Virus record (IMG/VR): IMGVR_UViG_2534681831_000011
Origin: a virus
Taxonomy: Duplodnaviria; Heunggongvirae; Uroviricota; Caudoviricetes
Direction: 5' to 3' (one strand)
DNA length: 12,566 bases
Part shown: positions 4,230 through 4,860 of the stretch, piece after piece
Position numbering within the stretch: position 1 is the first letter of the stretch
Layout: each line of letters opens with the position of its first letter
Position numbers and translations under genes: made by a program
Notes under the pieces: generated by a model
What the model was told of the DNA's origin: nothing
The model's database searches: none
Seen by the model: the letters and a program-made list of their open reading frames with translations, nothing else

Positions 4230-4427
4230 GTTTTGCTGATGCGCCGTATCGTCGCCGTATTCCTGCATTAACAGAGACCGCAGCCCGACAGGGAGACTCC
4301 TCTGCGAGAGTGTGCGGGGATAATCAAAAACGATACACACCGGGGTTTACCGCGTAAACGGAGCGCGGCGTTCTCCCCTCATGGTCGCCCGTCCGGTGCG
4401 ATGGTGGAAGAAACTGGAATCTGTTCA

Positions 4428-4459
4428 ATAAAAAAACTGCCGTGTTGGAGTCACAGCAG
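4428..4459 (-). terminator. Putative rho-independent terminator for the minus-strand RHH gene
   Basis: Stem CTGCCGTG (4437-4444) pairs with CACAGCAG (4452-4459) with one G-U pair and a 7-nt loop. On the minus strand it is followed by an 8-9 T run (complement of 4428-4436). Confidence 0.45.
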
Positions 4460-4591
4460 TAATGTACTGATTGGGTAGAAGATTATTATTGTTATGCTTT
4501 ATTTTTATTCTATATGGCTGATTATTTCAATTCGGAATTAATACAGCTAATGTCTGTGAGTTTTTATAAATTCAGCAATATAAAGAAATAG

Positions 4592-4819
4592 TTATATGAA
4601 CAGCCATCGCAGAGCATACTGTGTATCATTCTTTTTTATAGTCAACTGACGGGCATATTTTATGTCTGCTGCCAGCTCCCGGCGGCAAGATTCAATGACC
4701 CACGCAGAAAAATTTTCTGAACCTTTCTGGTCAAGAGCGATGTTAATTTGTTCAATCATCTGGTTTGGAAATCGGATGTTGCGGGTTGTTGTTCTGCGGG
4801 GCCGGTTTTTCGATGACAT
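4592..4819 (-). CDS. Ribbon-helix-helix (Arc/MetJ/CopG-like) DNA-binding protein
   Basis: 75-aa minus-strand ORF with GAGGAAAG about 6 nt upstream of its ATG (complement of 4817-4819). The N-terminal basic strand followed by a helix (RNIRFPNQMIEQINIALDQKGSENFSAWVIESCRREL) fits the RHH pattern. It is the only confident minus-strand gene in the window. Confidence 0.6.
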   Translation of the reverse strand: MSSKNRPRRTTTRNIRFPNQMIEQINIALDQKGSENFSAWVIESCRRELAADIKYARQLTIKKNDTQYALRWLFI

Positions 4820-4860
4820 TTTCTTTCCTCTGGTGACAAGCTATATGGCGAGGATTTTAC

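What the first reader, a model, noticed from the sequence alone, without database searches (positions are those of the whole stretch)
4230..4860. Lone minus-strand RHH regulator embedded in the plus-strand late operon, with its own terminator and a long AT-rich 3' tract
The RHH gene (4592-4819) is the only confident gene on the opposite strand. It is followed on the minus strand by about 150 nt of AT-rich non-coding sequence ending in a terminator (4428-4459), and preceded by about 360 bp of non-coding sequence after Rz where lambda carries bor. Opposite orientation and distinct base composition are typical of morons; RHH proteins are often antitoxins or small repressors, yet no partner toxin ORF is adjacent. 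The AT-rich tract could encode a small RNA.
Basis: partly seen in the sequence, partly recalled or inferred. Interest (0 to 1): 0.45.

Follow-up and report, generated by a model that had tools for sequence, protein, structure and literature searches.

The report
Known prophage sRNA HnrS beside YlcI gene
The AT-rich stretch and terminator behind the small backward-facing gene are the already published prophage small RNA HnrS, which turns down the bacterial silencing protein Hha, and the gene itself is an ordinary uncharacterised lambda-family gene; an unannotated, apparently structured 180-base element next to them is the only part that may be new.

Summary
The window matches Stx1 phage BP-4795 and many EHEC prophages at 100% over 4150-4950. 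The minus-strand ORF 4592-4819 is a YlcI/YnfO-family (DUF3950) gene. Its first 47 codons are under strong purifying selection (pN/pS about 0.1) and occur in about 70% of complete E. coli genomes and, unannotated, in phage lambda. An RHH fold is plausible but not shown.

The "AT-rich 3' tract plus terminator" is the 66-nt Hfq-dependent sRNA HnrS (EcOnc10/11/12; PLoS Pathog 2026), at 4495..4430 on the minus strand. The sequence is identical in Sakai prophages Sp9, Sp10 and Sp12. [quoted passage not shown] A promoter-like site sits at the right distance.

hnrS lies in a 259-bp low-GC cassette (4420-4678). This cassette also supplies the ORF's C-terminal tail and occupies the slot where lambda and Qin carry a DUF1398 gene. 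I found no toxin partner and no bor remnant.

The rest of the "non-coding" DNA (4240-4419, plus strand) is a sharply bounded 180-nt element. It occurs in 76% of E. coli genomes and in lambda, and shows covariation consistent with a structured RNA. It is not in Rfam and its function is unknown.

The parts
4592..4819 (-). YlcI/YnfO-family (DUF3950) ORF of 75 aa; this is BP-4795 ORF52 and Sakai ECs_1788/1967/2255
   Evidence: ORF list. Pfam DUF3950 at E=3e-17. NCBIfam NF041551 scores 39.2 against a cutoff of 30. phrog_949, function unknown. RefSeq names it 'YlcI/YnfO family protein'.
4679..4819 (-). Conserved N-terminal 47 codons: a basic arm, the NIRFP motif and two helices. This is the putative DNA-binding domain.
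   Evidence: The block is 85-86% identical in DNA to lambda, DLP12 ylcI, Qin ynfO and CFT073 ynfO, and the homology stops at the ATG and at codon 47. pN/pS is about 0.10. It is present in 3783 of 5426 E. coli genomes.
4420..4678 (-). Low-GC (0.33) hnrS cassette. It holds the variable C-terminal tail of the ORF (4592-4678), the AT-rich spacer with the hnrS promoter, and hnrS with its terminator.
   Evidence: There is no homology to lambda, DLP12, Qin or CFT073 between the two conserved blocks. The full-length ORF variant is in 543 genomes and the hnrS block in 544. C-terminal tails across the family are hypervariable.
4430..4495 (-). hnrS: the 66-nt Hfq-dependent sRNA HnrS (EcOnc10/11/12)
   Evidence: The 67 nt at 4495..4429 (the sRNA plus one base 3' of it) are found exactly in Sakai Sp9, Sp10 and Sp12, at the places of the EcOnc12/11/10 Hfq peaks after calibrating the coordinate shift with AgvB. 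It has a 15-nt perfect complement to the last 15 nt of the mazF CDS and an 8-nt complement to the hha SD, GGUAGAAG. These are the properties published in PMC13502914.
4502..4530 (-). hnrS promoter-like site: -35 TTGAAA (4530..4525), 17-nt spacer, -10 TAAAAA (4507..4502). The inferred start is A4495.
   Evidence: The promoter scan found TTGAAA-18-AAAAAT at 4530..4501. I re-registered the hexamers by eye on the sequence. A start at 4495 gives exactly 66 nt to the last U at 4430, the published length.
4430..4460 (-). Intrinsic terminator of hnrS: a 9-bp stem at 4460..4436 plus a U-run at 4435..4430. It is also the first terminator downstream of the ORF.
   Evidence: Terminator scan. The MFE fold is -12.7 kcal/mol, z=-4.4. 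No other terminator-like site lies between 4592 and 4460 on the minus strand.
4240..4419 (+). Conserved 180-nt element with sharp boundaries. It is probably a structured RNA within the late (plus-strand) transcript. Its function is unknown.
   Evidence: It occurs in 4141 of 5426 E. coli genomes at 11004 places and is almost never annotated. It is also in 398 phage records, in lambda at 46868-47034 and in K-12 DLP12. RNAalifold gives -35.9 for the plus strand against -11.9 for the minus strand. In the non-redundant alignment 96.5% of cells are paired, and 9 pairs change on both sides against 3.2+-1.2 in shuffles, 0 of 500. Paired cells are 98.5% on the plus strand against 88.6% on the minus strand. 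There is no codon periodicity and no Rfam match.
4921..4949 (-). Weak promoter-like site that could drive the DUF3950 ORF. It lies inside the 5' end of the HNH gene.
   Evidence: CTGACA-17-CAGAAT, 9 of 12 matches. This is a consensus match only. The upstream DNA is unrelated to that of lambda-type ylcI genes.
3762..4229 (+). Rz spanin gene, with Rz1 embedded at 3982-4167. This is the left neighbour and the end of the lysis cassette.
   Evidence: Pfam Phage_lysis at E=5e-50; BP-4795 annotation.
4861..5226 (+). HNH endonuclease gene. This is the right neighbour, divergent from the ORF, and the first gene of the packaging module.
   Evidence: Pfam HNH at E=7e-7; phrog_589; BP-4795 annotation.

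Best explanation
The locus is the leftward-transcribed unit at the junction between the lysis and packaging genes of a lambdoid Stx prophage. From what was published for the identical Sakai copies, it should be expressed in the lysogen. It has two parts.

(1) hnrS (4495..4430, minus strand). In the lysogen the late operon is silent. RNA polymerase starts at a sigma-70-type promoter in the AT-rich tract, makes a 66-nt RNA and stops at the intrinsic terminator. The RNA has a single-stranded, A/U-rich 5' half and a 3' hairpin with a U-tail, which is the classic shape of an Hfq-dependent sRNA. Nucleotides around 9-23 (AAUAAUCUUCUACCC) pair with the Shine-Dalgarno region of hha mRNA and block its translation. 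Lower Hha weakens H-NS/Hha silencing of horizontally acquired genes such as the LEE and prophage regulators. Everything downstream of the sequence identity is taken from the published work on the identical Sakai copies, not shown here.

(2) The ORF 4592-4819. This is a YlcI/YnfO (DUF3950) protein. Its conserved 47-residue N-terminal domain is a real, selected unit. Its motif pattern resembles the strand and first helix of Arc/Mnt-type ribbon-helix-helix repressors, so the most likely activity is dimeric DNA binding. That is an inference, and the target is unknown. Its transcripts have no terminator before the hnrS one and probably end there.

The hnrS cassette (4420-4678, GC 0.33) was spliced between two conserved anchors: the 180-nt element and codon 47 of the ORF. 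The same slot holds a DUF1398 gene directly downstream of the ORF in Qin and CFT073, and a DUF1398 gene plus a ybcW-like ORF in lambda and DLP12. The cassette thereby gives the ORF a new, probably irrelevant, C-terminal tail. During lytic growth, Q-antiterminated late transcription would run head-on across both genes; this too is inferred.
For: Identity of the window:
- It is 100% identical to BP-4795 over 4150-4950, and the same stretch is found at 100% identity in many EHEC chromosomes. The three Sakai prophage copies (Sp9, Sp10, Sp12) are 96.6-96.8% identical to the window over the wider stretch from 3700 (to 5382-5600), and carry the hnrS 67-mer exactly.

HnrS:
- The 67 nt containing it are exact in Sp9, Sp10 and Sp12.
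- The Tree-2014 Hfq peaks EcOnc12/11/10 fall on it once the +137..146 shift between genome versions is calibrated with AgvB.
- It has a 15-nt perfect complement to the mazF 3' end. The duplex is -27.1 kcal/mol and 0 of 500 shuffles do as well.
- CUUCUACC is complementary to the hha SD.
- The length from the promoter-predicted start to the last U is 66 nt.
- These match the published description.
- The block sits at 1113 places in 544 genomes, and the best place in 544 of the 545 records is at least 99% identical.
- In divergent alleles the hha seed is kept while the mazF complement is broken.

The ORF:
- Family hits above cutoffs.
- pN/pS of 0.10.
- An intact unannotated homologue in lambda, next to cos.
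- The same position in DLP12, Qin and CFT073.
- Hypervariable tails.
- A 228-nt DUF3950 gene was quantified in RNA-seq of O157:H7 ATCC 43889, a strain that carries hnrS.

The cassette:
- Block homology and GC content.
- Full-length ORF variant in 543 genomes against 544 for hnrS.
Against: - The paper's text as held here does not print the HnrS sequence, and its supplements were not available. The identity therefore rests on location, length and the two published complementarities.
- The predicted HnrS-hha duplex alone is not exceptional: -12.1 kcal/mol, and 34 of 500 shuffles do as well.
- The promoter is a 9-of-12 consensus match in AT-rich DNA.
- No operator-like repeats were found.
- No good promoter for the ORF was found.
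Confidence: 0.85

Rival explanations
1. HnrS is not an independent gene. It is the processed 3' end of the DUF3950 mRNA, a 3'UTR-derived sRNA released by RNase E, so that ORF and sRNA form one transcription unit.
For: They are on the same strand, and no terminator-like site lies between the ORF stop (4592) and the hnrS terminator. This ORF variant and hnrS co-occur almost one to one, 543 against 544 genomes. K-12 ylcI is reported to be transcribed, in a convergent overlap with ybcW.
Against: The published dRNA-seq and Term-seq give all three Sakai copies the same 5' and 3' ends, and the authors treat HnrS as a 66-nt sRNA of its own. A -35/-10 pair sits at exactly the distance that yields 66 nt. 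Both routes could coexist.
Confidence: 0.15
2. The ORF is the antitoxin of a type II toxin-antitoxin or defence module whose toxin was lost or lies elsewhere.
For: It is a small basic protein with an RHH-like pattern. In Qin and CFT073 the homologue is followed 57 nt later by a co-directional gene, ydfO (DUF1398).
Against: Neither the ORF nor YdfO matches any PADLOC model. PHROGs labels the DUF1398 family 'head protein'. In DLP12 ylcI and the DUF1398 gene ybcV are separated by ybcW on the other strand; lambda has the equivalent order, p78 (minus) - p79 (plus) - unannotated ylcI homologue (minus). In the window no ORF is adjacent. The N-terminal domain is under purifying selection regardless of neighbour.
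Confidence: 0.05
3. The ORF product regulates hnrS, or the divergent HNH-terminase operon, as a local repressor. Protein and sRNA would then form one regulatory module.
For: This ORF allele and hnrS are tightly linked. The ORF is divergent from the packaging genes in every context seen where both are present. Small RHH-type repressors typically act on adjacent promoters (general knowledge).
Against: The linkage is explained by the cassette junction lying inside the ORF. No inverted or direct repeats with operator character lie near either promoter. The conserved domain is the same in prophages without hnrS and with other terminase types, and the DNA upstream of the ORF is unrelated between contexts.
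Confidence: 0.15
4. The conserved 180-nt block 4240-4419 is not an RNA. It is a DNA-level feature such as a recombination linker between mosaic modules, a promoter region for bor-type morons on the minus strand, or a protein-binding site.
For: It marks mosaic boundaries with sharp edges in many contexts. Two copies flank a cassette in one contig. In lambda and the 933W type it lies 116-180 nt upstream of bor. The single-sequence folding energy is no better than shuffles, z=-0.5.
Against: Pairing is strand-asymmetric: alifold gives -35.9 against -11.9 and -27.6 against -9.8. 336 G-U cells would be A.C mismatches on the other strand. Nine pairs change on both sides against 3.2 expected, 0 of 500. 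The block is present and conserved where bor is absent, as in the window.
Confidence: 0.3

Closest known systems
HnrS (EcOnc10/11/12), prophage sRNA of EHEC O157:H7 Sakai (Poudyal et al., PLoS Pathog 2026, PMC13502914; first seen as Hfq peaks in Tree et al. 2014, PMC4104026)
   Same: The sequence is identical to the Sp9, Sp10 and Sp12 copies. It has the same neighbours (Rz / DUF3950 / HNH 'DNase'), a 66-nt length, an intrinsic terminator, the mazF 15-mer complement and pairing with the hha SD.
   Different: Nothing detectable; this is another copy, in a BP-4795-type Stx1 prophage. Added here: its promoter-like site, its 259-bp low-GC cassette with the junction inside the neighbouring ORF, and divergent alleles that keep only the hha seed.
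YlcI (DLP12) and YnfO (Qin) of E. coli K-12; Pfam DUF3950, NCBIfam NF041551
   Same: The N-terminal 47 residues are 89% identical (42 of 47). The gene has the same orientation, antisense to the late operon, and the same place just left of the packaging genes.
   Different: The C-terminal tail is different (75 aa against 64 and 77 aa). The upstream DNA is different: an HNH gene instead of the cos region with Nu1-type terS. The downstream neighbour is hnrS; Qin has the DUF1398 gene ydfO there, and DLP12 has ybcW (opposite strand) followed by the DUF1398 gene ybcV.
Arc and Mnt repressors of phage P22 (ribbon-helix-helix)
   Same: Small size. The motif N-[IL]-R-[FW]-P followed by an amphipathic helix aligns in register with Arc residues 9-30. 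There is a basic N-terminal arm. An antirepressor gene (P22_AR_N) lies about 1 kb away in the window.
   Different: There is no significant sequence or structure match. The arrangement is not that of immI: the gene is convergent with ant and separated from it by Rz. It also occurs in lambda, which has no ant. The similarity to Arc and Mnt is a lead, not a demonstrated relationship.
Lambda bor and other morons of the Rz-cos interval
   Same: The hnrS cassette sits in the same interval, is transcribed against the late operon, has its own promoter-like site and terminator and a low GC content, and the sRNA is reported to be expressed in lysogens.
   Different: The cargo is an sRNA rather than a protein. 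bor itself is absent from the window.
AgvB and AsxR, prophage anti-sRNAs of EHEC (Rfam RF02702, RF02703)
   Same: They are short Hfq-binding RNAs carried by the same class of prophages. AgvB lies about 5 kb upstream of hnrS in Sp10.
   Different: HnrS targets an mRNA (hha) rather than sponging a core sRNA. It has no Rfam family.

Membership tests
HnrS sRNA | Sequence identity with the EcOnc10/11/12 loci of Sakai Sp12, Sp10 and Sp9 | tested here: met
   The 67 nt at 4495..4429 are exact at NC_002695.2 2234370-2234436 (+), 1946945-1947011 (-) and 1779647-1779713 (-). After the AgvB-calibrated shift of +137..146, offsets of 137-144 put the EcOnc11 peak entirely inside the Sp10 copy.
HnrS sRNA | 66-nt transcript ending at an intrinsic terminator | tested here: met
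   The terminator is at 4460..4430. The promoter-predicted start at 4495 gives 66 nt. The ends are predicted here, not measured.
HnrS sRNA | [quoted passage not shown] | tested here: met
   CUACCCAAUCAGUAC is the reverse complement of GTACTGATTGGGTAG at the end of K-12 mazF. The duplex is -27.1 kcal/mol, with 0 of 500 shuffles as good.
HnrS sRNA | [quoted passage not shown] | tested here: met
   CUUCUACC pairs with GGUAGAAG immediately 5' of the hha AUG. The predicted energy alone is not exceptional, with 34 of 500 shuffles as good.
HnrS sRNA | Hfq binding, expression in the lysogen, repression of Hha | not testable with these tools
   Published for the identical Sakai copies.
YlcI/YnfO family (Pfam DUF3950, NCBIfam NF041551) | Profile match above the curated cutoff | tested here: met
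   Pfam 62.6 bits against 25. NCBIfam 39.2 bits against 30. 27 of 28 distant members also match DUF3950.
YlcI/YnfO family (Pfam DUF3950, NCBIfam NF041551) | Position at the right end of lambdoid genomes, antisense to the late operon and adjacent to the packaging genes | tested here: met
   Seen in the window, lambda, DLP12, Qin, CFT073 and Sakai Sp9/10/12.
Ribbon-helix-helix (Arc/MetJ/CopG) superfamily | N-terminal beta-strand plus two helices forming an intertwined dimer, with detectable homology or fold match to known RHH proteins | tested here: inconclusive
Type II toxin-antitoxin antitoxin | Adjacent co-transcribed toxin gene | tested here: not met
   No ORF lies adjacent on the minus strand. 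There is no PADLOC match for the ORF or for the DUF1398 neighbour of its relatives.
Moron (autonomous insert in a phage late operon) | Own promoter and terminator, deviant base composition, insertion between conserved neighbours, expression from the prophage | tested here: met
   This applies to the hnrS cassette 4420-4678: promoter-like site and terminator, GC 0.33 against about 0.55-0.60, and absence from lambda, CFT073 and DLP12 between the same two conserved blocks. Expression in lysogens is published. It does not apply to the conserved part of the ORF.
Any Rfam 15 family (for hnrS and for the 180-nt element) | Covariance-model match | tested here: not met
   Only chance snoRNA-type matches at E of 0.3 or more, far below the gathering scores.

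The most novel reading that the evidence does not exclude
The apparently empty DNA between Rz and hnrS (window 4240-4419, plus strand) may be a previously undescribed structured RNA. It would be carried in the late transcript of lambdoid phages, including lambda itself (46868-47034, between bor and p78). It is present in about three quarters of E. coli genomes and marks one edge of a cassette slot whose other edge is codon 47 of the ylcI-like gene. hnrS and the DUF1398 gene would be alternative cassettes in that slot. The RNA could be a processing or stability element, or an insulator between the lysis mRNA and the packaging mRNA.
Probability: 0.35. Interest if true: 0.6.

Novelty: already known. 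Interest (0 to 1): 0.33.

Why it matters
For the finding as given, little is new. It re-identifies a copy of HnrS, a virulence-relevant counter-silencing sRNA, which RefSeq and GenBank records leave unannotated and which Rfam lacks. Annotation pipelines therefore miss it at more than 1100 places in complete E. coli genomes.

Three by-products are useful:
- The exact anatomy of the hnrS cassette, and the fact that divergent alleles keep the hha seed but not the mazF complement. This agrees with hha being the functional target.
- Phage lambda carries an intact, unannotated ylcI homologue 200 bp from cos.
- A conserved, probably structured 180-nt element sits in the late operon of lambda-like phages. 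If it is real and functional, it would be an overlooked RNA in the best-studied phage.

Tried and rejected
- Rfam scans of the window and of 4200-4620 gave only chance snoRNA matches.
- The HnrS paper's supplements were not held, so the printed sequence could not be compared. A full-text search for the sequence strings found nothing.
- Literature on ylcI, ynfO and DUF3950 consists of incidental mentions only. Literature on ybcV and ydfO says nothing about an RNA in the bor-ybcV gap.
- The Pas sRNA preprint gives no indication that PasA-D correspond to this locus.
- A search for operator-like repeats around the ORF and hnrS promoters found nothing convincing.
- A 10-codon ORF at the start of the 180-nt element (ATGCGCCGT...TAA) was rejected, because the lambda and 933W types have an in-frame stop at codon 3 and there is no codon periodicity.
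- Bor, p78 and p79 remnants are absent.
- The genome contigs pattern scan found only Escherichia and a few likely contaminant contigs.
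Full report
**What the window is.** The ORF map shows a lambdoid late region: holin, lysozyme, a P22-type antirepressor, Rz/Rz1, then HNH endonuclease, small and large terminase, a protease-capsid fusion and portal. Window 4150-4950 is 100% identical to Stx1 phage BP-4795 and to prophages of many EHEC chromosomes. In O157:H7 Sakai the same arrangement (antirepressor, small ORF, Rz, gap, minus-strand 228-nt ORF, HNH 'DNase') occurs in Sp9, Sp10 and Sp12. 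Those copies are 96.6-96.8% identical to the window over the stretch from 3700 (to 5382-5600).

**Checking the observation.**
- The minus-strand ORF 4592-4819 (75 aa) exists and is the only minus-strand CDS annotated in that 12.8 kb of BP-4795.
- A terminator-like hairpin with a T-run lies at 4460..4430 on the minus strand.
- GC falls to about 0.30 in 4401-4600.
- 362 bp separate the Rz stop (4229) from the ORF stop (4592).

The description is accurate.

**The AT-rich tract is hnrS.** A literature search for prophage sRNAs led to HnrS, previously EcOnc10/11/12. The paper describes it as:
- a 66-nt Hfq-associated sRNA with an intrinsic terminator;
- present as three identical copies in the late genes of Sakai Sp9, Sp10 and Sp12;
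- perfectly complementary to the last 15 nt of the mazF CDS;
- a repressor of hha that pairs at its ribosome-binding site, AGAAG.

The window's minus strand from 4495 to 4430 reads AUAACAAUAAUAAUCUUCUACCCAAUCAGUACAUUACUGCUGUGACUCCAACACGGCAGUUUUUUU. It meets each point:
- It contains CUACCCAAUCAGUAC, the exact reverse complement of the last 15 nt of K-12 mazF. It also contains CUUCUACC, complementary to GGUAGAAG just upstream of the hha AUG.
- Predicted duplexes are -27.1 kcal/mol with mazF (0 of 500 shuffles as good) and -12.1 kcal/mol with hha (34 of 500).
- The 67 nt at 4495..4429 (the sRNA plus one base) are found exactly in all three Sakai prophages.
- The 2014 Hfq-peak coordinates refer to an older genome version. 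I calibrated the shift with AgvB, 5 kb away in Sp10. Rfam places AgvB at 1941920-1941981 in NC_002695.2, against the 2014 peak at 1941783-1941835. The shift is therefore +137 to +146. With offsets of 137-144 the EcOnc11 peak lies entirely inside the candidate.
- A -35/-10 pair, TTGAAA-17-TAAAAA at 4530..4502, predicts a start at A4495. That gives exactly 66 nt to the last U.
- The fold is a single-stranded 5' half plus a terminator hairpin, z=-4.4.

I regard the identity as established.

**Distribution of hnrS.** The hnrS-plus-promoter block occurs at 1113 places in 544 of 5426 complete E. coli genomes. The best place in 544 of the 545 records is at least 99% identical, and the listed hits carry no annotation. 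It has no Rfam family.

**The ORF.**
- It belongs to the YlcI/YnfO family: Pfam DUF3950, NCBIfam NF041551 and phrog_949 of unknown function.
- Only its first 47 codons are shared with K-12 ylcI and ynfO, CFT073 ynfO and lambda. They are about 85% identical in DNA and 42 of 47 residues identical. The homology begins at the ATG and stops at codon 47.
- In that block pN/pS is about 0.10, so it is a real, selected coding unit. It occurs in 3783 of 5426 genomes.
- The C-terminal tails differ from allele to allele.
- The allele with the window's tail is found in 543 genomes, essentially the hnrS set.
- Lambda carries an intact 64-aa homologue at 48109-48303 on the minus strand, about 200 bp from cosN. 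It is not annotated in NC_001416.
- The family is small: 184 representatives at 50% identity among 1.84 billion proteins.

**Other claims about the ORF.**
- Toxin-antitoxin or defence role: nothing supports it.
- Operator-like repeats: none found.
- Its promoter: the DNA upstream of the ORF is unrelated to that of the lambda-type genes, and only a weak promoter-like match exists inside the HNH gene.
- Expression: RNA-seq of O157:H7 ATCC 43889 quantified a 228-nt DUF3950 gene. This is weak evidence of transcription.

**Mosaic anatomy.** Block comparison with lambda, DLP12, CFT073 and others shows three shared blocks:
- Rz, 3831-4207;
- a 180-nt element, 4240-4419;
- the ORF's N-terminal segment, 4679-4819.

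Between the last two lies a 259-bp stretch with GC 0.33 (4420-4678), found only in hnrS-bearing prophages. Between the same two blocks CFT073 has a DUF1398 gene (ydfO), and lambda and DLP12 have a DUF1398 gene (p78, ybcV) followed by a ybcW-like ORF (p79) on the other strand. In Qin ydfO directly follows ynfO, but the 180-nt element was not detected there. So hnrS is a classical moron-like cassette whose right junction falls inside the ORF and supplies its tail. No Bor, p78 or p79 remnant is present.

**HnrS alleles.** Some viral contigs carry an 87-91% allele that keeps AAUAAUCUUCUACCC but breaks the mazF complement. An ETEC prophage has a more distant look-alike in the same slot. This fits the published conclusion that hha, not mazF, is the functional target.

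**The remaining 'non-coding' DNA.**
- Window 4230-4425 matches 11004 places in 4141 of 5426 E. coli genomes, including 691 on plasmids, at about 75-100% identity. It is almost never annotated.
- It also matches 398 phage records.
- Alignments show a discrete unit of about 180 nt whose flanks diverge completely on both sides.
- In every locus examined it has the orientation of the late operon and lies between the lysis genes and the terminase genes. It occurs with several terminase types and with or without bor, DUF1398, DUF3950 or a TonB-like moron.
- A profile search finds it in lambda at 46868-47034 and in K-12 DLP12 at 579009-579176.
- One contig has two copies flanking a plus-strand ORF.

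**Evidence that the element is a structured RNA.**
- RNAalifold strongly favours the plus strand: -35.9 against -11.9 kcal/mol on 84 sequences, and -27.6 against -9.8 on 37 non-redundant ones.
- On the four-helix model, 96.5-98.5% of cells are paired.
- Most variation is of the G-U type that only the plus-strand RNA tolerates. 336 G-U cells give 98.5% paired on the plus strand against 88.6% on the minus strand.
- Nine pairs show changes on both sides against 3.2+-1.2 in shuffles, 0 of 500, and slid controls collapse.
- There is no codon periodicity and no conserved ORF.

**Evidence against, and what I conclude about the element.** Single-sequence folding energy is unremarkable, z=-0.5. The structure was derived from the same sequences it was tested on. 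I could find no description of the element in Rfam or in the searchable literature. I therefore report it as a probable structured RNA of the late transcript with unknown function. A DNA-level recombination linker is the main rival.

**Verdict.** The sRNA is the already characterised HnrS. The protein gene is an ordinary, functionally unknown member of a lambda-family gene set, and its RHH fold is unproven. The moron is the hnrS cassette rather than the protein gene. The finding itself is already explained. The 180-nt element is the one item that deserves further work.

Noticed in passing
window 4240-4419 (+); lambda NC_001416 46868-47034; K-12 NC_000913 579009-579176: A sharply bounded 180-nt element sits between the lysis and packaging genes, in 76% of complete E. 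coli genomes and in 398 phage records. It is unannotated and not in Rfam. Its pairing is strand-asymmetric and shows covariation, which suggests a structured RNA within the late transcript. Its function is unknown.
   Followed up: yes
L144 2710-2904 (-), which is lambda 48109-48303: Phage lambda encodes an intact 64-aa YlcI/YnfO (DUF3950) homologue about 200 bp left of cosN. It is not annotated in NC_001416.
   Followed up: yes
L143 4840-4952, L034 3162-3227, L095 303-366; L014 about 2675-2805 (-): Divergent HnrS alleles (87-91% identical) keep the hha seed AAUAAUCUUCUACCC but lose the perfect mazF complement. ETEC4085 has a more distant sRNA-like look-alike, with its own -35 hexamer and terminator, in the same slot.
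   Followed up: partly
L032 5058-5235 and 6007-6186 (+): Two copies of the 180-nt element lie 950 bp apart in one viral contig. They flank a plus-strand ORF of about 200 aa, between Rz and a Nu1-type terminase. This hints that the element delimits exchangeable cassettes.
   Followed up: partly
window 3039-3608 (+) and 3605-3754 (+): A P22-type antirepressor gene (P22_AR_N plus ORF11CD3) and a small hydrophobic ORF are inserted inside the lysis cassette between the lysozyme gene and Rz. A 270-bp gap precedes the antirepressor gene.
   Followed up: no
window 5227-5515 (+): The 290-bp gap between the HNH gene and the small terminase gene contains a G/C palindrome-like run (CCCGCCCCGGGGGGGG at about 5229-5244). 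By analogy with HK97-type phages, which use an HNH protein for cos cleavage, this gap is the likely place of the cos site. That is my own knowledge and was not tested.
   Followed up: no
window 11310-12533 (+): The 407-aa ORF after the portal gene contains three to four near-identical tandem repeats of about 60 aa (…PRDGRDYDP.VL..AVNDAVANIP.PADGKS.TPDDVRPMLEQMVKEAVSHIP…).
   Followed up: no
window 1100-1500: A second low-GC stretch (0.39-0.41) with no long ORF lies upstream of the holin gene. In Sakai Sp10 the sRNA genes AgvB and STnc100 lie about 5 kb upstream of hnrS, just outside the window's left end.
   Followed up: no
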